Assembly: GCA_035650455.1 (NCBI GenBank)
Contig: DASRHQ010000070.1
Coordinates: 60-64,059, forward strand
From: Solirubrobacteraceae bacterium
GTDB lineage: Bacteria > Actinomycetota > Thermoleophilia > Solirubrobacterales > Solirubrobacteraceae
DNA length: 64,000 bases
Direction: 5' to 3'
Part shown: piece by piece, positions 18,511-56,737 of the stretch
How the letters are laid out: each line of letters opens with the position of its first letter
How positions within the stretch are numbered: the first letter of the stretch is position 1
Position numbers and translations under genes: made by a program
Notes under the pieces: model-generated
The model's database searches: none
Seen by the model: the letters and a program-made list of their open reading frames with translations, nothing else
What the model was told of the DNA's origin: nothing

Positions 18511-19728
18511 ATGAGAAGAGACCTGTTCCGTCGGCGGCCGCTGTCAGCGGTCAGGGTCGCGGTGATCACCGTGGCCGTTCTGCTGCTGCTCGCGATCGGC
18601 ATGTGGCTGGGAGGACACCCCAGTTGGATGCCCTCCGGGCTACGCAGTGCCTTTGTCAACGACTCGGGCAGTCGCCTGATGCAGGACGTGGTGTCCCTGC
18701 TCCAGCGCGACTACTACCGGCCGGTGAACGCCGACCAGCTGGTGAACAAGGGTATCTCCGGCGCCGTCGCCAGCCTCAACGATCCCTACTCCCACTACTT
18801 CAATCCCGCCGACTACCACACCTTCATGAACCAGTCGAACCCGCACCTGAGCGGCATAGGGGTGGACGTCCTGCCCGACTCACAAGGGCTGCGGATCGTG
18901 GGCGTCTTCCCCGGTTCGCCGGCCGCCCGGGCCGGACTGACACCTGGGACGGTGATCGTGAAGGTTGGTTCGCGACCGCTTGGTGGCCACTCCGCCGACT
19001 TCGACTCGAGCCTGATCCGGGGACCGGCCGGAACCTCGGTAACGCTCACGGTCGTAAACGGCGGCAAGCGACGCAGGGTCACCCTGAAGCGGGCAAATAT
19101 CGTCGTTCCCGTGGCCAGCGGACGCGTGATCACCTACCACGGAGTGAAGATCGGCTATGTGCAGCTGACCAGCTTCACGGAGGGCGCCGGGTCCGAAGTG
19201 CAGGCACAAGTCAAGCGGGTGCTCCACGCCGGCGCGCGCGGCCTGATCCTCGACCTCCGCGAAAACGGTGGTGGGCTGCTCGATCAGGCCGTTGCCGTCG
19301 CCAGCATCTTCATTCCAGACGGAACGATCGTCTCCACCGACGGTCGCAGCCAGCCGCGGCAGGTCTACCTCGCCAAGGGTGGTGCGATCGCCGTCCACCA
19401 GCCCATGGTGGTCCTGGTGGACCACGGCACCGCCTCCGCCGCAGAGATCGTGACGGCCGCGCTCAAGGATCGCCATCGCGCGCTCGTGGTCGGAACCCGG
19501 ACCTACGGCAAGGGCGTCTTCCAGGAGATCGACCCGCTGCCCAACGGCGGAGCGCTTGACTTCACCGTCGGCGAGTACTTCACGCCGAATGGGCAGAACC
19601 TCGGAGGTGGCGGAGTGCGGCGCGGGAAAGGCGTCCAGCCCAACATCTACGCGGTCGACAATCCGAGCACGCACGTCGACGAGGCGCTTCAGAAGGCCGA
19701 GCAGACCGTTGCGCACAAGGTTCAGTGA
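18511..19728 (+). CDS. S41 C-terminal processing protease with PDZ domain
   Basis: LNDPYSHY, GIG, SPAARAGL, LDLRENGGG, TASAAE, TYGKG. Confidence 0.93.
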   Translation: MRRDLFRRRPLSAVRVAVITVAVLLLLAIGMWLGGHPSWMPSGLRSAFVNDSGSRLMQDVVSLLQRDYYRPVNADQLVNKGISGAVASLNDPYSHYFNPADYHTFMNQSNPHLSGIGVDVLPDSQGLRIVGVFPGSPAARAGLTPGTVIVKVGSRPLGGHSADFDSSLIRGPAGTSVTLTVVNGGKRRRVTLKRANIVVPVASGRVITYHGVKIGYVQLTSFTEGAGSEVQAQVKRVLHAGARGLILDLRENGGGLLDQAVAVASIFIPDGTIVSTDGRSQPRQVYLAKGGAIAVHQPMVVLVDHGTASAAEIVTAALKDRHRALVVGTRTYGKGVFQEIDPLPNGGALDFTVGEYFTPNGQNLGGGGVRRGKGVQPNIYAVDNPSTHVDEALQKAEQTVAHKVQ

Positions 19729-21554
19729 GCCCGACCCGACGTGCCCCAGCGCGCTCGACGGCGGGCCCACGGCGCGCGACGCCCCCGCGCGGGGACGGCG
19801 AGCACCGTGCGGGCGGGCTCCGGGTCGGGGTGCTGAGGCGGCGGGGGAAGTTCGTCGTCGCCGAGCCGTTCTTTGAGGCGGGGCCGCGAGTCGCCGTGAG
19901 TCGCGACGGCAGGGCCGCTCTGGGTGACCTCGTGGCGCTGCGCACCCGCCCCCACCGCGACGGTCGCGGTGGGCGGGCGGTGATCGCCTCGCGACTGGGC
20001 CGCCCCGAAATCGCGCGCGATGTGATCGAGGCGTTCATGATCGACCGCGGACTGAAGCGCTCCTTTTCGGACTCCGTCGAGCGCGCAGCCATCGCCACAG
20101 TCACCCCGGATTCGGATCGGCGCCCGCGGCGTGACCTGCGCTCGCTTGAGACCTTCACGATCGACCCCGTCAGCGCGCGCGACTTCGATGACGCCATCTC
20201 GGCCGCCCCGGCCGAGGATGGAGGTCGGCGCGTGTGGGTACATATCGCTGACGTCGGCGCACACGTTGCACCTGGTTCACCGCTCGACCGCGAGGCCTAT
20301 CGCCGTGGGTGCAGCGTTTACGTTCCGGGCGCGGTCGAACCGATGCTCCCCGCCGCTCTCTCCAGCGGCGCCTGCTCGCTGGTACCGGACCAGGACCGGC
20401 TCGCGTTCACTGTGGAGCTCCTGGTGCGCGATGCAGGCGTCCACACAGCGGCCTTCTACCGCTCGGTGATCCGCTCTGACGCGCGCCTTGATTACGGCCA
20501 GGTCGACAGCATTTTCGCCGGCACCGAGCGCGCGCCTGAGCGATGCGGCGAAGCGCTCCTGGCCGCGCGCCAGGTTGCCGCCGCGCTGCAGGGGCGGCGC
20601 GAGCAGCGCGGCGCGCTGGCGATCTCCAGCGAGGAGCCCGAATTCCGCTTCGACCGAGACGGAAACGTCGTGGAGGCGGTGGCGACCGTGCAGACCGAAT
20701 CTCATCGGCTGATCGAGCACCTCATGATCGCGGCGAATGAGCAGGTCGCCAAGGTTCTCTCCGGCCGTGACATCCCCTCGCTTTACCGAGTCCACGAGCG
20801 GCCCGACGGCCTCGCCGTCGAGCGCCTGGTGGCACAACTCGCGTCGCTGGGCGTGCCCACTCCACCGCTGCCCAAGGGACCACTCAGCCCACAGCAAGCA
20901 GCGGCCGCGGTCGCTGAGGCTTCGCAGCTCGTGACCGACTACGCGGTGCGAACCGGTCGCGGGAAAAGGGCCTTCGCCAGTTTGCTGCTGCGGTCGCTCA
21001 AGCAGGCTTACTACGACCATCGCAACCTTGGTCACGCCGGTCTGCAGTCGCCGACGTACTGCCATTTCACCTCACCGATCCGCCGCTACCCCGACCTCAT
21101 CTGCCACCGGGCGCTGCTCGCCGCGGTGGCGGGCGAGCCGGCTCCGGATAGCCGGTGGGTGGCGACGGCCGGACCCTGGACATCGGCTCGCGAACGCGAG
21201 GCGATGATGATCGAGAGGGACGCGGACGACGTTGCTCGCTGCTTCCTGCTCGATCGCCTGATGACCGACGCCGGCCATGAGGCTGTGTTCGAGGGCGAGG
21301 TGACCGGACTGCACTCCTCGGGAGCGTTCGTGGCGTTTGGGCCGGACCGAATGTTTGAAGGCATGCTCCCGGTTCGCAGGCTGATCGGCGACTGGTGGGA
21401 GCTAAACGAGCTTGGGACCATGCTGCATGGAACGAGAACGGGGCGGACTATCCGCCTCGGCGATCCCATCCAGGTACGGGTTGGGACGATCGACGCCCCC
21501 CGCGGCAGAGTCGATCTTCATCCCGTGACTGCAAGCGAACACTCCGGCGGCTGA
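19725..21554 (+). CDS. rnr: RNase R / RNB-domain exoribonuclease (short N-terminus)
   Basis: FTIDPVSARDFDDAIS, HIADV, SHRLIEHLMIAAN, HFTSPIRRYPDL, C-terminal S1; adjacent to smpB. Confidence 0.88.
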   Translation: MSPTRRAPARSTAGPRRATPPRGDGEHRAGGLRVGVLRRRGKFVVAEPFFEAGPRVAVSRDGRAALGDLVALRTRPHRDGRGGRAVIASRLGRPEIARDVIEAFMIDRGLKRSFSDSVERAAIATVTPDSDRRPRRDLRSLETFTIDPVSARDFDDAISAAPAEDGGRRVWVHIADVGAHVAPGSPLDREAYRRGCSVYVPGAVEPMLPAALSSGACSLVPDQDRLAFTVELLVRDAGVHTAAFYRSVIRSDARLDYGQVDSIFAGTERAPERCGEALLAARQVAAALQGRREQRGALAISSEEPEFRFDRDGNVVEAVATVQTESHRLIEHLMIAANEQVAKVLSGRDIPSLYRVHERPDGLAVERLVAQLASLGVPTPPLPKGPLSPQQAAAAVAEASQLVTDYAVRTGRGKRAFASLLLRSLKQAYYDHRNLGHAGLQSPTYCHFTSPIRRYPDLICHRALLAAVAGEPAPDSRWVATAGPWTSAREREAMMIERDADDVARCFLLDRLMTDAGHEAVFEGEVTGLHSSGAFVAFGPDRMFEGMLPVRRLIGDWWELNELGTMLHGTRTGRTIRLGDPIQVRVGTIDAPRGRVDLHPVTASEHSGG

Positions 21555-21558
21555 TTCC

Positions 21559-22032
21559 ATGGCACGTCCACGCAGACGCAAGGCCCAGCCCGGTGACGTG
21601 GCTACCAACCGTCAGGCCTCCTGGCGCTACCACCTGCTCGAGCGCTATGAGGCCGGGCTGGTCCTGACCGGGACCGAGGTTAAGGCCCTGCGCGCATCGG
21701 GCGCCCAGCTAAAAGACTCCTACGCGGTGATCCGCGACGGCGAGGCGTGGCTGATCGGCTGCTACATCGCACCGTACGGACCCGCCAACCGCGCCAATCA
21801 CGATCCGGAACGTGAGCGCAAGTTGTTGCTGCACCGATCGGAGATAGAGCGGCTGATCGGCAAGACGCAGGAAAGGGGACTGACCCTGATCCCGACGCGG
21901 GTCTACTTCTCGGGTGCACACGCCAAGGTCGAGCTCGCCCTGGCCCGCGGCAAGGACCGCTACGACAAGCGCGAATCGATCCGCAGGCGCGAGGTCCAGC
22001 GCGAGATCGAGCGCGAGCTCCACGCGCATTAG
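21559..22032 (+). CDS. smpB: SsrA-binding protein SmpB
   Basis: ATNRQA, EAGLVLTGTEVKALR, RKLLLHRSEI, ELALARGK, DKRESI. Confidence 0.98.
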   Translation: MARPRRRKAQPGDVATNRQASWRYHLLERYEAGLVLTGTEVKALRASGAQLKDSYAVIRDGEAWLIGCYIAPYGPANRANHDPERERKLLLHRSEIERLIGKTQERGLTLIPTRVYFSGAHAKVELALARGKDRYDKRESIRRREVQREIERELHAH

Positions 22033-22085
22033 GTAGAGGGGGTCCTCGTTGGCCGTTGAGCGGCGGCTACACCCCCGGTTTGAAT

Positions 22086-22155
22086 GGGACCGGCACATGT
22101 GCCGGTCCCCCGGCCGCGCATGCGCGGCCGGGGCGCGGGCGCATGCGCCCGCGCC
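22086..22155. repeat. Array of three tandem perfect palindromes (core GCRCATGYGC, 23-bp period)
   Basis: GGGACCGGCACATGTGCCGGTCCC (22086-109), CCGGCCGCGCATGCGCGGCCGG (22110-131), GGCGCGGGCGCATGCGCCCGCGCC (22132-155). Confidence 0.9.
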
Positions 22156-22171
22156 TGCCCAGATCGTTTCT

Positions 22172-22265
22172 GACCAAAGCCGTCGCGCGGAATCGGACTT
22201 TGATGGCTTTCGGTCGCTCGGCGGTTTATTCCGACCAAACCGCAAACTTCCGGGTGAGTCTGGTC
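22172..22265. repeat. Cluster of GACCAAA-containing imperfect hairpins
   Basis: GACCAAAGCCGTC (22172-184)/GATGGCTTTCGGTC (22202-215); GCGGTTT/AAACCGC (22221-243); second GACCAAA copy. Confidence 0.55.
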
Positions 22266-22318
22266 ATTTTTTCCCGCCTCTTCGACTGACGGCGAGCCGA
22301 CCCCTCAGAGCCGGCGAT

Positions 22319-23221
22319 CTAAAGCGTGCGCGGCAGATGCGTCGCGTTCATACCCACCACGAGTGCCGCGATCAACGCCAGATAGAGCGCTGCGACGAAA
22401 GCCCGGTCGATGGGGCGGACGCGGTAGTAGTCGCGCTGGCGCGCGTCTCCACTACGCCGCAGCTTCCACCGCTTGTAGGTCTCGTAGCCCCCGATCACCA
22501 GGATCAGGAACATGATCGGGTTGGGAAAGATGATCGCGAGGGGGACAAGTGCCGCGAACCCGACGAACCACATCCATGGCGCCATTGCGGCCATGGCGCG
22601 TCCGCCGTCGAGCGGAACGACGGGCAACAGATTGAAGAGGTTCAAGAAGAACCCGGTGAACGCGAGCGCCCGCCAGATGTCGTTGCCGGTGAGATGCCAG
22701 ATCACGATGCACGCGGCTGACCCAACGCTTCCCAGGATCGGCCCTGCCAGGCCCACCCGGGCCTCGGCGAGAGCATTGTCACCAAGCGAGCGGGCGCTGA
22801 TCACCGCCCCCATGAAGGGGATGAACATAGGCAGGCTCGCCTTTAGTCCCTCGCGCCGGAGCTGGATCACATGCCCGAGCTCGTGGACCAGCAACAGGGC
22901 GACAAAGCCGAGCGCGAAGGGCCAGCCGAAGACGAAGCTGTAGGCCGCGATCGAGACGAGCATCGTGCCCGCGCTCGCCAACAACTTGACCTTGGGCAGG
23001 AGCAAGAGGATCGCCTTGAGCTTCGCGAGCAACGCCACGAGCGCGGCACCGATCGGCGCCAGTTTGCGCTTGACGAATGACTCTTTCGCGGGCAGTCGCG
23101 CACCTGGCGTGTGCCGCCGGGGGACGACGTTGTCCGTGCCGGGCGCAAAGCCCTCGGTGGTCGGCTCCGGAGCCGCGGGTGGCGGCTTTGGAACCAGCCA
23201 TTGGTTCTGCTGAGCCATCAC
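22319..23221 (-). CDS. Site-2 protease (M50) intramembrane metalloprotease
   Basis: VHELGH, FIPFMGA, LAGP, NLFNLLPVVPLDGGR. Confidence 0.93.
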   Translation of the reverse strand: MMAQQNQWLVPKPPPAAPEPTTEGFAPGTDNVVPRRHTPGARLPAKESFVKRKLAPIGAALVALLAKLKAILLLLPKVKLLASAGTMLVSIAAYSFVFGWPFALGFVALLLVHELGHVIQLRREGLKASLPMFIPFMGAVISARSLGDNALAEARVGLAGPILGSVGSAACIVIWHLTGNDIWRALAFTGFFLNLFNLLPVVPLDGGRAMAAMAPWMWFVGFAALVPLAIIFPNPIMFLILVIGGYETYKRWKLRRSGDARQRDYYRVRPIDRAFVAALYLALIAALVVGMNATHLPRTL

Positions 23222-35837: not shown

Positions 35838-37970
35838 TCACGCAGCCTGGGTCGCGCCCTCCCGGAGGCCAATCCGCTCGTGCAGGCGTCGTAGCGGGCG
35901 GGGCGCCCACCAGTTGGCCGATCCCAGCAGTTGCATCAGCGACGGGACCAGCAACGCTCGGATGATCGACGCGTCCAGCAGAACGGCCAGCGCGGTGCCG
36001 ATTCCGAGCTCCTTGATGAATACGATCTGCGAAGTCGCGAAGGCGCCGACGGCGACGGCGAAGAGCAATGCGGCCGCGGTGACGATGCGCCCGGTCCTCT
36101 CGAGTCCGAGAGCCACGGCCTCGGAGTTGGGTACGCCGGCGTCGTGTGCCTCCTTTATACGCGCCAGGAGGAACACGCCATAGTCGGTGGCCAGCCCGAA
36201 GCCGATCGCAAACAGCAGGATCGGCTGCGTGGCGTCGAGCGCGCCGAGGCTGTGGTAGCCGAGCAGACCCCGAAGGTTGCCGTGCTGGAAGATCAGGACG
36301 AGGATCCCGAACACGGCGCATAGATTGAGCGCGTTCATCAAGACGGCCTTGATCGGCAACACGACTGAGCCAGTCATCACGAACAGAACGATCAGCGCGG
36401 CGGCGATGACTACGCCGAGCACCGCGGGGAGGTGGGCGCCGAGGCTATGCTCGAGATCGAGGTAGGACGCCGTTTGCCCGGCGACGCCCAGGTAGTAGGG
36501 CGTATGGATCGAGCGCACCTCGCGCACGAGCCGCTCGGTGCTGGCGGTGAGCGGACCGTGGACCGGCGCGACATCGAGCAGCGACGTCCCGCGACCGGCG
36601 GACCGAGCGGGCCCGACCGCCGATACATCCGGCAGGCGGGCAATCCGCTCGGTGAGCTTCCGAACTTCCGGCGAGGACACGGGGACCCCCACAACCACCT
36701 CGAGCGGAGTGGTGCGATTGGGCGGGAATTCAGTGTTAAGCGAATCTTGGACTTGGTGGGCGCTTGCGCTCTGGGGAAGAACCCGGGCGTCCGCGGTGAT
36801 GAACCGGGTCTGCGTGAACGGGATGCCGAGTGCGATGAGCACCGCGGCGCTCGCGACGGCGACCTGCGCCGGCCGCCTACTCACGAACTGCGCGAGGCGG
36901 TACCACCCGCCGCTCCGCGCGGGCCGCGCGTCGCGTTCGGCGGCCTGCCGTAGCCGCCGGGGTGAGAGCGCGTTGATGCGCGGGCCGAGCACAGCCACCA
37001 GCGCAGGAAGCACAGTCAGCGCCAGCGTCGCCGCCAGGAGCGCGACGATCGCGCCCGCGATCCCCATCGAGTACAAGAACCGCTGCGGGAATATCGCGAG
37101 TGCGGCCACTGAGACCGCGACCGTCACCGAGCTGAACAGTACGGTGCGTCCGGCGGTCCGCAGGGTGCGGCGCAGTGCTTGTGGGCCGAAGCCGTTCCGT
37201 GCGGCTTCCTCGCGGTAGCGCGAGACGACGAACAGGCTGTAGTCAATCGCCAAGCCGAGTCCCAGTCCGGTCGTCAGGTTCAGGGCGAAGACCGACAGGT
37301 CGGCGAACGTCGAGACGACCCGCAGGAGGAAAAAGGTGCCGAGAATCGCGAGCCCACCGAGCAGCGGCGGCAGCAGCGCCGCGACGACCGAGCGAAAGAA
37401 CAGCAGCGAGAGCAGGAAGATGAACGGGAAGGCGAGCAGTTCGGCGTGCGCCAGGTCGTTGCCGACTTGCGTGTTCACCTGCGCGTTGGCGATCGCGTCG
37501 CCGCCCAGCTTGACGTCATGCTGGGACGAGAAGCGGCTCTCGATCAGGCTGGCGTCGTCGGATAGGCGCTTGTCAGACACCGCCCTGAAGTACGCGACCA
37601 CGTATGTCGAGCGTCCGTCGCGCGCCACCATCGCGGGGCTGTGCGTGCTGTAGAAGCTCTGAACGCTCGCCACGTCGGGCTGCGCCCTGAGCTTCGCCGC
37701 GACCTGTCCGACTCGCAGTCGGGCCGTTTGACCGCGCACATCACCGCTCGAAACCAGCGCCACGACGCCGGGATCGATCTGGCGCCCGGTCGCGGCCTGG
37801 AAGCGGTTGGTCGCCTGGACGCTCTGCGTGGCCGGGTCGTTCGCGCCGTACGGGCTCAGACCGCTGGACACGCCGGCGCCGAACACACCGGCGATCGCCG
37901 TGGCCACCACCGCCACGGACAGCACGCGGCGGCGGTTTGTATAGACAAATGTCGCGAGCTTTTCGAACAT
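35838..37970 (-). CDS. MMPL/RND-family transporter
   Basis: GLAIDYSLFVVSRYREE, TAGRTVLFS, GLATDYGVFLLARIKE, TGRIVTAAA; start ATG 37970. Confidence 0.93.
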   Translation of the reverse strand: MFEKLATFVYTNRRRVLSVAVVATAIAGVFGAGVSSGLSPYGANDPATQSVQATNRFQAATGRQIDPGVVALVSSGDVRGQTARLRVGQVAAKLRAQPDVASVQSFYSTHSPAMVARDGRSTYVVAYFRAVSDKRLSDDASLIESRFSSQHDVKLGGDAIANAQVNTQVGNDLAHAELLAFPFIFLLSLLFFRSVVAALLPPLLGGLAILGTFFLLRVVSTFADLSVFALNLTTGLGLGLAIDYSLFVVSRYREEAARNGFGPQALRRTLRTAGRTVLFSSVTVAVSVAALAIFPQRFLYSMGIAGAIVALLAATLALTVLPALVAVLGPRINALSPRRLRQAAERDARPARSGGWYRLAQFVSRRPAQVAVASAAVLIALGIPFTQTRFITADARVLPQSASAHQVQDSLNTEFPPNRTTPLEVVVGVPVSSPEVRKLTERIARLPDVSAVGPARSAGRGTSLLDVAPVHGPLTASTERLVREVRSIHTPYYLGVAGQTASYLDLEHSLGAHLPAVLGVVIAAALIVLFVMTGSVVLPIKAVLMNALNLCAVFGILVLIFQHGNLRGLLGYHSLGALDATQPILLFAIGFGLATDYGVFLLARIKEAHDAGVPNSEAVALGLERTGRIVTAAALLFAVAVGAFATSQIVFIKELGIGTALAVLLDASIIRALLVPSLMQLLGSANWWAPRPLRRLHERIGLREGATQAA

Positions 37971-55430: not shown

Positions 55431-56003
55431 ATGAAGCTTGGACGTCTCATACTGCGGGCCGGCATCGGGGGAGTCTTCGTGGGTCACGGTGCCCAAAAGC
55501 TGTTCGGCTGGTTCGGAGGCCACGGCCTTCAGGCCACGTCGCAGGCCTTCGAGAGCATGGGAATGCGCCCCGGTCGGGTCCATGCGACCGCTGCCGCGGT
55601 CGCCGAGTTCGGGAGTGGAGCGCTGGAACTGCTTGGTTTGGCGACGCCGCTGGCGGCCTCGGGCATTACCGGCGTGATGCTGACCGCGATCCATCGCGTG
55701 CACAAAAAGAATGGGTTCTTCGTTACCGACGGCGGATACGAGTTCAACCTCGTGTTGATCGGCGCGGCGCTAGCGCTTGCCGAGGTCGGGCCTGGCCAGC
55801 CGTCGCTCGACTCGGCGCTGGGGATGGACATGCACGGCCCGGGGTGGGCGCTCGCGGCGCTCGCTGCCGGCGCTGCCGGAGCGGCCGGCGCTCACCTGTA
55901 CGCAGAGAGCCAGGCGCAGCCCCCCGCGCCGACGCCCCCTGCGGCGGCCGAACAGACCGTGACCGAGCAGGCGCCCGCCGAGGCCGCGCAGCCGAGCGCA
56001 TAG
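55431..56003 (+). CDS. DoxX-family membrane protein
   Basis: [35 protein letters not shown]; GGGGA RBS. Confidence 0.92.
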
Positions 56004-56016
56004 ATCACCTGTGGAC

Positions 56017-56088
56017 GGCCGCCGCACATGTGCGGCGGCCCGGCCGCGCACATGTGCCCGGCCGCCGGCCGGCGCATGCGCCGGCCGG
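56017..56088. repeat. Second array of three tandem 24-bp palindromes (core GCRCATGYGC)
   Basis: GGCCGCCGCACATGTGCGGCGGCC (56017-40), CGGCCGCGCACATGTGCCCGGCCG (56041-64, 1 mismatch), CCGGCCGGCGCATGCGCCGGCCGG (56065-88). Confidence 0.9.
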
Positions 56089-56089
56089 G

Positions 56090-56737
56090 TTAGATTGGGG
56101 GCATGAGCGGGCTTTCGATCCCAGATGCCATGCCCCGAACGGCCGCGAGTCGCTCGAGCATCACAGCCGTGTCGGCGATCTTGACACCGGTGAGGTGACT
56201 TTCTCGCTGCTCGAAGTCGCGGACCACGTCGCCGATCGCGGCGGTGTACGCACGTCCGTCGCGGAGAGCCAGCGCGGTCAGCGCCCGGGCGGTGCGCTCG
56301 AAGGCGTCCCCACCCCGGGCCATCTCCTGGCTCCACCTGCGCGCGTCGGGGTCGTCGCCCGCTACCAGCGCGGAGAGCGCGCGCGCATACGAGGCAGTCG
56401 GCGAGCCGGCGACCGCCTCCTCGTCGTCGAGAGCATCGCGGGCAAACGCGGCCGCGTCAGTCGCGTCGCCGGCGAGAATCGAGGACTTGAGCATGCCGAC
56501 GAGGCGCCCATAGCTGCGCGGCGGCGATGTCTCCCAGGAGGCGCGGTACAGATCTGCGGCCGAGTGGAACGCGGCGAGCGCGCCGTCGCGGTCGCCCGCC
56601 AAGAGGGCCCCCTGAGCTTCGGCATCGCGCTCGATCGCGGCCCTCATCAGGTCGCGGTGAGGGGGTGCGGGCACGGACGTCAGAGTACGCGCCGCGACTG
56701 TCGACATCCAGACCGCCGAAGGAGTACGGTGAGCCAC
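56090..56737 (-). CDS. Hypothetical all-helical protein divergent from coxS
   Basis: Ala-rich helical [22 protein letters not shown]; start may be ATG ~56648. Confidence 0.65.

What the first reader, a model, noticed from the sequence alone, without database searches (positions are those of the whole stretch)
22086..22155. Triple-palindrome element, copy 1: head-to-tail GCRCATGYGC dyads with self-complementary variable arms
Seen: three abutting perfect palindromes (24, 22, 24 bp) with centres exactly 23 bp apart (22097.5, 22120.5, 22143.5). Each has core GC-R-CATG-Y-GC. The R/Y positions covary (A..T vs G..C), and the outer arms differ between units (GGACCG, CCGGCC, GCGCGG) yet each unit stays self-complementary. 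The array sits between convergent genes (smpB and the S2P gene), and a second array with the same design lies 34 kb away. Known: intrinsic terminators are usually single looped stems, REP/BIME units are imperfect palindromes with linkers, and CRISPR needs spacers; none fits a loopless, spacerless trimer. Inference: a dispersed element family, such as a phased binding array for a dimeric protein, a cruciform or RNA-stem module, or the product of a palindrome-generating or mobilising enzyme. Best candidate for an undescribed system in this window.
Basis: partly seen in the sequence, partly recalled or inferred. Interest (0 to 1): 0.78.

Follow-up and report, generated by a model that had tools for sequence, protein, structure and literature searches.

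The report
Stop-codon hairpin triplets, CATG loop
The three back-to-back palindromes are real and belong to a family of about 65 hairpin stacks sitting just after gene ends in some soil Solirubrobacterales; it resembles E. coli REP/BIME repeats, and I found no description of it in the papers or RNA libraries I searched.

Summary
Units lie at 22086-22109, 22110-22131 and 22132-22155, and a second triplet lies at 56017-56088.

- **Family size:** The 3.76-Mb genome is a Solirubrobacterales MAG. It has 183 CATG-centred perfect palindromes of 20 bp or more, against at most 8 for any other centre. They group into about 67 loci, mostly triplets with 23- or 24-bp spacing.
- **Unit build:** Each unit is a 10-bp G+C stem with a CATG loop. 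The core G-[C/A]-N-CATG-N-[G/T]-C is conserved and the arms are free but complementary (97% paired).
- **Position:** 44 of 67 loci start within 20 bp of a stop codon, against 3.4% for random placement. Divergent promoter gaps are avoided.
- **Evolution:** Copy 2's site holds a triplet in relatives with only 68-74% flank identity, and every arm differs. Against a 93%-identical relative, 32 stem pairs changed on both sides and 4 on one side, and unit number varies from 1 to 4. Copy 1 lies in a 270-bp insert that this relative lacks.
- **Excluded:** No RAYT gene, GTAG tag, U-tract, Rfam match or paper was found.

Best reading (0.5): REP/BIME/TRIT-like hairpin modules at transcript 3' ends, kept perfect by DNA-level template switching or conversion. 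I class it as a new variant of a known kind.

The parts
22086..22109 (.). Unit 1 of copy 1: 24-bp perfect palindrome GGGACCGGCACATGTGCCGGTCCC
   Evidence: I3; folds as a 10-bp stem with a CAUG loop on both strands
22110..22131 (.). Unit 2 of copy 1: 22-bp perfect palindrome CCGGCCGCGCATGCGCGGCCGG. It has the CCGGCCG arms typical of the family's middle unit.
   Evidence: this array is the 23/23-spacing subtype
22132..22155 (.). Unit 3 of copy 1: 24-bp perfect palindrome GGCGCGGGCGCATGCGCCCGCGCC
   Evidence: I2
22040..22310 (.). Lineage-specific intergenic insert of about 270 bp that carries copy 1. It is absent from the 93%-identical relative G041 and from other relatives, where the smpB and M50 stop codons lie about 10-90 bp apart. 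Its non-array part has no other copy in the genome.
21559..22032 (+). smpB, the upstream gene of copy 1. Its stop codon lies 54 bp before the array.
   Evidence: Pfam PF01668, E=1e-56
22319..23221 (-). Convergent M50 (S2P-type) peptidase gene
   Evidence: Pfam PF02163
56017..56040 (.). Unit 1 of copy 2: GGCCGCCGCACATGTGCGGCGGCC
56041..56064 (.). Unit 2 of copy 2: CGGCCGCGCACATGTGCCCGGCCG, with one mismatched pair
56065..56088 (.). Unit 3 of copy 2: CCGGCCGGCGCATGCGCCGGCCGG. The array fills the gap between the DoxX gene (stop at 56003) and a convergent ORF (stop at 56090).
   Evidence: A triplet sits at the orthologous site in G042, G043, G044 and G049, and one unit at a contig end in G193, all with different arms.

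Best explanation
This is a lineage-restricted family of extragenic hairpin modules that work like REP/BIME or mycobacterial TRIT elements.

Each unit is a 22-24-bp perfect palindrome. In RNA, or in single-stranded DNA, it folds into a 10-bp G+C stem closed by conserved G-C, C-G (or A-T) and R-Y pairs around a CATG tetraloop. Units are stacked without spacers, usually three at a time, and begin a median of 11 bp after a stop codon.

Transcribed from either side, an array gives three consecutive, very stable stem-loops. I infer that these mark and protect transcript 3' ends. They would block 3'-to-5' exonucleases and insulate convergent or tandem neighbours, possibly with the help of a factor that reads the conserved CAUG loop and closing pairs. 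They would not act as canonical U-tract terminators.

The perfect symmetry and the fast, concerted turnover of the arms are best explained at the DNA level. Intrastrand template switching would copy a change from one arm to the other, and gene conversion or slippage among units would replace, add or delete whole units.

Shown here: the family, the covariation, the position after stop codons, the persistence of array sites across relatives, the concerted arm changes, and the absence of a RAYT gene and of a U-tract. Inferred: transcription, the 3'-end function, the loop-reading factor and the conversion mechanism.
For: - **Enrichment and size:** 183 CATG-centred palindromes against at most 8 for any other centre, with a sharp 12-nt arm length.
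- **Array form:** 50 triplets, 4 quadruplets and 8 doublets, with spacing of 24 (67 cases) or 23 (46 cases).
- **Covariation:** across 116 distinct units, 97% of cells are paired and 449 cells show a change on both sides. None of 500 shuffles reaches this, and slid controls give 32-48% pairing.
- **Folding:** three CAUG-looped hairpins form on both strands, with z-scores of -4.5 and -6.0.
- **Position:** 44 of 67 loci lie within 20 bp of a gene's 3' end, against 3.4% for random intergenic placement. Contexts are 22 convergent, 35 tandem and 3 divergent, against a background of 248, 753 and 376.
- **Site persistence:** copy 2's site holds a triplet in genomes with 68-74% flank identity, with entirely different arms. 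Most related arrays sit at orthologous sites in this genome.
- **Concerted change:** against a roughly 93%-identical relative, 207 stem pairs are unchanged, 32 changed on both sides and 4 on one side. The changes cluster in a few units, and unit number varies from 1 to 4.
- **Loop conservation:** CATG in 180 units, CGTG or CACG in 10, and every other centre at background.
- **Neighbours:** diverse housekeeping genes, with no recurrent transposase.
Against: - Transcription and 3' ends are therefore untested.
- The hairpins are followed by A-rich rather than T-rich sequence. Mycobacterial RNA polymerase needs a U-tract for intrinsic termination (PMC3993855), and TRIT motifs overlap few mapped termini in M. 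tuberculosis (bioRxiv 10.1101/2022.06.01.494293). Simple termination is therefore doubtful.
- Only 2 of 15 stem mismatches are G-T. There is no RNA-specific wobble signature.
- Only about 2% of genes carry an array, and many genomes of the same genus have none. Any function is dispensable.
- Copy 1 is a recent gain inside an unexplained 270-bp insert.
Confidence: 0.5

Rival explanations
1. A selfish, non-autonomous mobile element of the REP/MITE kind. An unidentified enzyme would recognise the conserved GCRCATGYGC hairpin in single-stranded DNA and copy units or arrays to new sites next to stop codons. The position would then reflect target choice and tolerance, not function.
For: - The distribution is patchy. 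Genomes of one genus carry 108, 77 or 58 hits while others carry 10 or fewer, and a second genus is also positive.
- Copy 1 is a gain relative to a 93%-identical relative.
- Unit number and identity differ between close relatives.
- Arrays occur in either orientation relative to the neighbouring gene.
- In two cases the array lies in frame at or inside ORFs.
- The invariant core is what a recognition site would look like.
Against: - No Y1/RAYT gene (PF01797) is present in G000, G011 or G015.
- No transposase recurs beside the arrays.
- There are no target-site duplications or terminal inverted repeats, and flank complementarity is no better than chance.
- Most arrays are at orthologous sites across 70-93% flank identity.
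- There was no hit in viral contigs.
- The non-array part of the copy 1 insert is single-copy.
Confidence: 0.25
2. A DNA-level structural or binding site. The 10-bp palindromic core, or an extruded cruciform, would be bound by a dimeric protein such as a nucleoid-associated protein, gyrase or an insulator, as reported for some BIMEs. The three phased units would give cooperative binding.
For: - The units are perfectly symmetric with no G-T wobble.
- The 10-bp palindromic core is conserved.
- The 23/24-bp phasing is fixed.
- The only A/T pairs lie at the centre, which would favour cruciform nucleation (sequence).
Against: - A double-stranded binding site does not need its variable outer arms to stay complementary, yet they do in 97% of cells.
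- The tight coupling to stop codons points to transcripts or translation.
- CATG is neither avoided nor enriched elsewhere, with O/E 1.01, so there is no restriction-modification signature.
Confidence: 0.12
3. A translation-coupled regulator. A hairpin within about 15 nt of the stop codon would stall the terminating ribosome. This would lower protein output through trans-translation, as reported for E. coli REPs (Liang, Rudd and Deutscher 2015, recalled from memory and not held in the library), or would set the end of translation.
For: The median distance to the stop codon is 11 bp, and 44 of 67 loci lie within 20 bp. In one case the array has replaced the stop codon and extends the ORF by 27 residues.
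Against: - Copy 1 itself lies 54 bp from the smpB stop codon.
- Three hairpins are more than stalling needs.
- There are no expression data.
Confidence: 0.08
4. Chance, or an assembly or fold-back artefact.
For: None, beyond the general GC-richness of the genome.
Against: - None of 100 shuffles reaches the observed count in the window.
- The excess over other palindrome centres is about 20-fold.
- The same architecture occurs at orthologous sites in independently assembled MAGs, including long-read chromosomes.
- Only 1 of about 67 loci is near a contig end.
Confidence: 0.01

Closest known systems
REP (palindromic unit) sequences and their clusters (BIMEs, REPINs) of Proteobacteria
   Same: - Short extragenic palindromes in tens to hundreds of copies, often clustered.
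- Located at gene 3' ends and between convergent genes.
- Stems covary.
- Content differs between close relatives.
- Occasional in-frame insertions at gene ends are also reported for REPs (PMC3733652).
- Proposed roles are mRNA 3'-end protection, termination and effects on translation.
   Different: - Units here are perfect palindromes with no bulge.
- The conserved part is the loop plus three closing pairs, not the stem or a terminal GTAG/CGTC tag.
- Arms are almost free G/C strings.
- Units abut head to tail with no linker, in a preferred number of three.
- No RAYT gene is present in the genome.
- The host is an actinobacterial order, for which I found no REP report.
TRIT (Tuberculosis Rho-independent terminator) motif of Mycobacterium (RNIE paper, PMC3152330)
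   Same: - An actinobacterial, clade-restricted, conserved palindromic hairpin.
- 147 copies in M. tuberculosis, mostly bidirectional.
- A very narrow position relative to stop codons and no good U-tract.
- Function unproven, with a double-stranded-RNA-binding factor suggested.
   Different: - TRIT is a single hairpin with strong stem-sequence conservation, centred around position -8 (inside the ORF end).
- Here the stems are hypervariable, the loop is conserved, units come in triplets, and they start about 11 bp after the stop codon.
- No sequence relation was seen.
Canonical intrinsic (Rho-independent) terminators
   Same: G+C-rich hairpin downstream of genes. A symmetric hairpin can serve convergent genes.
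   Different: - No U-tract follows on either strand. Flanks are T-rich upstream and A-rich downstream, the reverse of a bidirectional terminator.
- The loop is invariant and the units are tripled.
- Only about 2% of genes carry one.
Quasipalindrome correction by intrastrand template switching (Ripley 1982; work on E. coli from the Lovett laboratory; recalled from memory)
   Same: It would explain why a change in one arm appears in the other, why pairs swap G-C to C-G without wobble intermediates, and why units stay perfect.
   Different: It is a mutational process, not an element family. It does not explain the conserved loop, the triplet build or the position after stop codons.

Membership tests
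REP/BIME (RAYT-associated) | Short (20-40 nt) palindromic extragenic repeat in high copy number | tested here: met
   About 180 units of 22-24 nt in about 67 loci, and the clear arrays are intergenic
REP/BIME (RAYT-associated) | Conserved terminal tetranucleotide tag (GTAG or CGTC) beside the stem (PMC3733652) | tested here: not met
   Unit ends are variable G/C. The flank profile shows only a weak GTT|..|AAC preference.
REP/BIME (RAYT-associated) | A cognate RAYT / Y1 HUH transposase gene (PF01797) in the genome | tested here: not met
   No match in G000 (91.5% complete), G011 or G015. The search found the family in control genomes.
REP/BIME (RAYT-associated) | Clusters of units in alternating orientation separated by linker motifs | tested here: not met
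   Units abut or overlap by 1 nt, with spacing of 23 or 24. Each unit is symmetric, so its orientation is undefined.
Intrinsic terminator | G+C-rich hairpin followed at once by a 7-9-nt U-tract | tested here: not met
   The hairpin is present, but the first downstream bases are A-rich on both strands. The terminator scan finds nothing at the array.
TRIT (Mycobacterium) | Match to the conserved TRIT stem sequence and structure, restricted to Mycobacterium | not tested
   No TRIT model was on hand. The Rfam scan of 21900-22400 gave only sub-threshold chance hits. The host and the variable stems argue against membership.
CRISPR array | Identical repeats separated by unique spacers of similar length | tested here: not met
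   There are no spacers, and the units themselves differ
MITE | Terminal inverted repeats with a target-site duplication and multiple near-identical copies | tested here: not met
   No duplication was seen. Flank pairing is no better than shuffled partners. Copies share architecture, not sequence.

The most novel reading that the evidence does not exclude
The invariant G-C-R-CATG-Y-G-C hairpin head is the recognition site of a dedicated, still unidentified protein. This could be a hairpin-loop-reading termination or RNA-processing factor, or a non-RAYT enzyme acting on single-stranded-DNA hairpins. Its patchy presence would explain why only some lineages in two genera carry the arrays. The arms would be actively rewritten in a palindrome-preserving way rather than drifting. 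If so, this is a new factor-plus-site system for punctuating genes in high-G+C Actinomycetota that lack canonical terminators.
Probability: 0.18. Interest if true: 0.8.

Novelty: new variant of a known kind. Interest (0 to 1): 0.55.

Why it matters
How transcripts end in high-G+C Actinomycetota, which have few canonical terminators, is still an open question. Lineage-specific conserved hairpins such as TRIT have been proposed as part of the answer, but without proof.

This family offers a clean natural experiment. About 65 sites per genome carry the same loop with nearly random but perfectly paired stems. They are stacked in threes right after stop codons and are maintained at the same sites over deep divergence while the stems are replaced.

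It would let one ask whether the loop is read by a factor, and how short perfect palindromes are kept perfect, for example by template switching or gene conversion. It also matters for annotation, because the arrays create false ORF extensions and can be read through in frame.

Tried and rejected
- **Four-way junction closed by the flanks (GUU...AAC):** rejected. Flank complementarity is no better than with shuffled partners.
- **Restriction-modification signature at CATG or RCATGY:** rejected. O/E is 0.90-1.03 outside the arrays.
- **RAYT:** absent.
- **Recurrent neighbouring gene or transposase:** none.
- **Phage origin:** the middle-unit pattern has no hit in viral contigs.
- **Array polarity tied to transcription direction:** none. 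The GGCC-type and YGGG-type outer units occur in either order.
- **Assembly artefact:** only 1 locus is near a contig end.
- **Rfam:** only sub-threshold chance hits.
- **Literature:** searches for Solirubrobacterales or Thermoleophilia palindromic repeats found nothing relevant.
- **Empty-site boundaries:** three sites where relatives have an array and G000 does not were too diverged (73-83% identity) to define exact junctions.

Full report
**Observation**

Their centres are 23 bp apart. A second triplet lies at 56017-56088. The core GCRCATGYGC occurs 6 times in the window against 1.23 expected, and no shuffle of 100 reaches 6. Copy 1 lies between smpB (PF01668, stop at 22032) and a convergent M50/S2P peptidase gene (PF02163, stop at 22319). 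Copy 2 fills the gap between a DoxX gene and a convergent ORF.

**A genome-wide family**

- The window is contig C70 of a 3.76-Mb, 66.9% G+C assembly. SmpB relatives place it in Solirubrobacterales.
- Perfect palindromes with arms of at least 10 nt number 183 when centred on CATG, and at most 8 for any other tetranucleotide centre.
- The perfect arm length peaks at 12 nt, in 143 of 226 units.
- The consensus is S7-G-[C/A]-N-CATG-N-[G/T]-C-S7. There are 80 different outer 7-mers among 183 units.
- Units form 50 triplets, 4 quadruplets, 8 doublets and 44 singles. Many of the weak singles are chance matches inside genes. Spacing is 24 (67 times) or 23 (46 times).
- Triplets come in two builds, 24/24 and 23/23. 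The difference depends on whether the middle unit has 24 or 22 bp, and that unit is most often CCGGCCG(G)RRCATGYY(C)CGGCCGG. Copy 1 is the 23/23 build and copy 2 the 24/24 build.

**The stem is what is conserved**

- On 116 distinct units, a 10-pair stem with a 4-nt loop is paired in 97% of cells. It has 449 cells changed on both sides, and none of 500 shuffles reaches this. Slid controls give 32-48% pairing. The units were ascertained as near-palindromes, so this number is partly circular. The independent evidence is the 20-fold excess over other centres and the sharp arm length.
- As RNA, copy 1 folds into three CAUG-looped hairpins on both strands, with z-scores of -4.5 and -6.0.
- Only 15 of 1638 stem pairs are mismatched, and only 2 of those are G-T. 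Most pair swaps are G-C to C-G. There is therefore no RNA-type wobble signature.
- The loop is strongly constrained. CATG occurs in 180 units and CGTG or CACG in 10, while all other centres are at background.

**Position**

I used a crude GC3-based gene caller.

- Array loci lie in 22 convergent, 35 tandem and 3 divergent gaps. The background for gaps of at least 70 bp is 248, 753 and 376.
- 44 of 67 loci begin within 20 bp of a gene's 3' end, with a median of 11 bp. Random placement in intergenic gaps gives 3.4%.
- In tandem gene pairs the array hugs the upstream stop codon, whatever the distance to the next start codon.
- Immediate flanks are T-rich upstream and A-rich downstream (GTT|array|AAC). 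This is the reverse of a bidirectional terminator. The flanks do not pair with each other beyond chance.
- No terminator-like site is called at the array.
- Neighbouring genes are diverse housekeeping genes, and no transposase recurs.

**Relatives**

- The middle-unit pattern finds the same triplet architecture in several Solirubrobacterales MAGs. Some of these are labelled only 'Actinomycetes' or 'Actinomycetota'.
- In 301 genomes of the order, counts far above control occur only in one family. They are found in two genera and patchily within them: G000 108, G193 77, G011 58, and G202 49, G235 33, G316 30, G265 27.
- Most arrays of relatives lie at orthologous sites in this genome, with flanks 72-93% identical.
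- Copy 2's site holds a triplet in G042, G043, G044 and G049, and one unit survives at a contig end in G193. Flank identity there is 68-74%, and every arm differs.
- Copy 1 is different. G041 is 93% identical, yet it and the other relatives have the smpB and M50 stop codons about 10-90 bp apart and no array. This genome has a roughly 270-bp insert (about 22040-22310) that contains the array, and its non-array part is single-copy.

**Mode of change**

- At 17 further orthologous sites compared with G041, unit number differs (1, 2, 3 or 4 units), while the immediate flanks stay nearly identical.
- Over 27 unit pairs at sites with equal unit number, 207 stem pairs are unchanged, 32 changed on both sides and 4 on one side.
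- The changes are clustered. Fourteen units are identical, several differ by one pair, and several differ by 3-6 pairs.
- This pattern fits two DNA-level processes: copying of a change from one arm to the other by intrastrand template switching, and replacement, gain or loss of whole units by conversion or slippage among arrays. That mechanism is inferred, not shown.

**What it is not**

- No Y1/RAYT gene is present in this genome or in two other array-bearing genomes, and there is no GTAG or CGTC tag. It is therefore not a member of the RAYT-REP system (PMC3733652).
- There is no U-tract, so it is not a canonical intrinsic terminator. Mycobacterial RNA polymerase requires a U-tract (PMC3993855).
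- It has no spacers, no terminal inverted repeats and no target-site duplications.
- CATG is not avoided elsewhere, with O/E 1.01.
- There was no Rfam family, no hit in viral contigs, and no paper found.

**Closest known kinds**

The closest known kinds are REP/BIME and the mycobacterial TRIT motif. TRIT has 147 palindromic copies with a narrow position at stop codons, and its authors suggested a factor that binds it (PMC3152330). Term-seq later found little overlap between TRIT and mapped termini (bioRxiv 10.1101/2022.06.01.494293).

**Best explanation**

I put 0.5 on hairpin modules at the 3' ends of transcripts that protect or delimit those transcripts, possibly read by a factor through the CAUG loop, and kept perfect by DNA-level processes. 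Persistence of arrays at a site while the stems turn over argues for a function. The dispensability of the family in many relatives, the recent gain of copy 1 and the invariant core keep a mobile-element reading alive at 0.25. A double-stranded binding array (0.12) does not explain the arm complementarity.

**Earlier notes of this scan**

Earlier notes describe the same CATG-palindrome family in other Solirubrobacterales windows, and related stop-codon hairpin families. I saw them after my own analysis and they agree with it. I partly checked their remark about in-frame copies. One array extends a TrpF-like ORF by 27 residues, up to a stop codon that overlaps the trpB start. Another lies in frame, with no stop codon, between an EPSP-synthase-like ORF and an AMP-ligase ORF.

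Noticed in passing
genome contigs C80:18118-18175, C79:2728-2782, C67:12918-12961, C29:36968-36994, C3:79496-79543; also locus L154: A second, roughly 65-nt imperfect hairpin repeat (CTCGGGCTTGCCGCGCGCTCGGCATCCGGCCTCGC...GCGCGGCGCCCGAGTCGTCCGGCT) occurs only inside or at the edge of CATG arrays, next to the CCGGCCGG unit. It looks like an element that targets the arrays.
   Followed up: partly
genome contig C3:98418-98489: No stop codon precedes this array. The TrpF-like ORF reads through all three units, adding 27 residues, and stops at a TGA that overlaps the trpB ATG. The same arrangement is present in the 93%-identical relative.
   Followed up: partly
genome contig C56:17795-17866: This array lies in frame, with no stop codon on either side, between an EPSP-synthase-like ORF and an AMP-dependent ligase ORF. 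The result is one 996-codon open frame.
   Followed up: no
window 22040-22310: The 270-bp insert that carries copy 1 also holds a direct repeat TTCYGACCAAA (22168 and 22229) and a weak terminator-like hairpin with a T-run at 22250-22272. Its origin is unknown.
   Followed up: partly
window 19725-22032: An RNase R/II-family gene (RNB plus S1 domains) sits directly upstream of smpB, so the array follows an rnr-smpB pair. RNase R is the exonuclease that degrades structured 3' ends in E. coli. This may be coincidence.
   Followed up: no
genome contigs C29 (end, about 36871-37030) and C25 (start, 50-120): The two contig ends are the same locus assembled twice with different array versions, one of which carries the 65-nt nested element. 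This suggests strain-level polymorphism of arrays in the sampled population.
   Followed up: no
genome-wide, e.g. C3:79467, C15:14858, C24:55524, C47:22604: Ten otherwise perfect units have CGTG or CACG instead of CATG. This single A-to-G transition is the only recurrent loop variant.
   Followed up: partly
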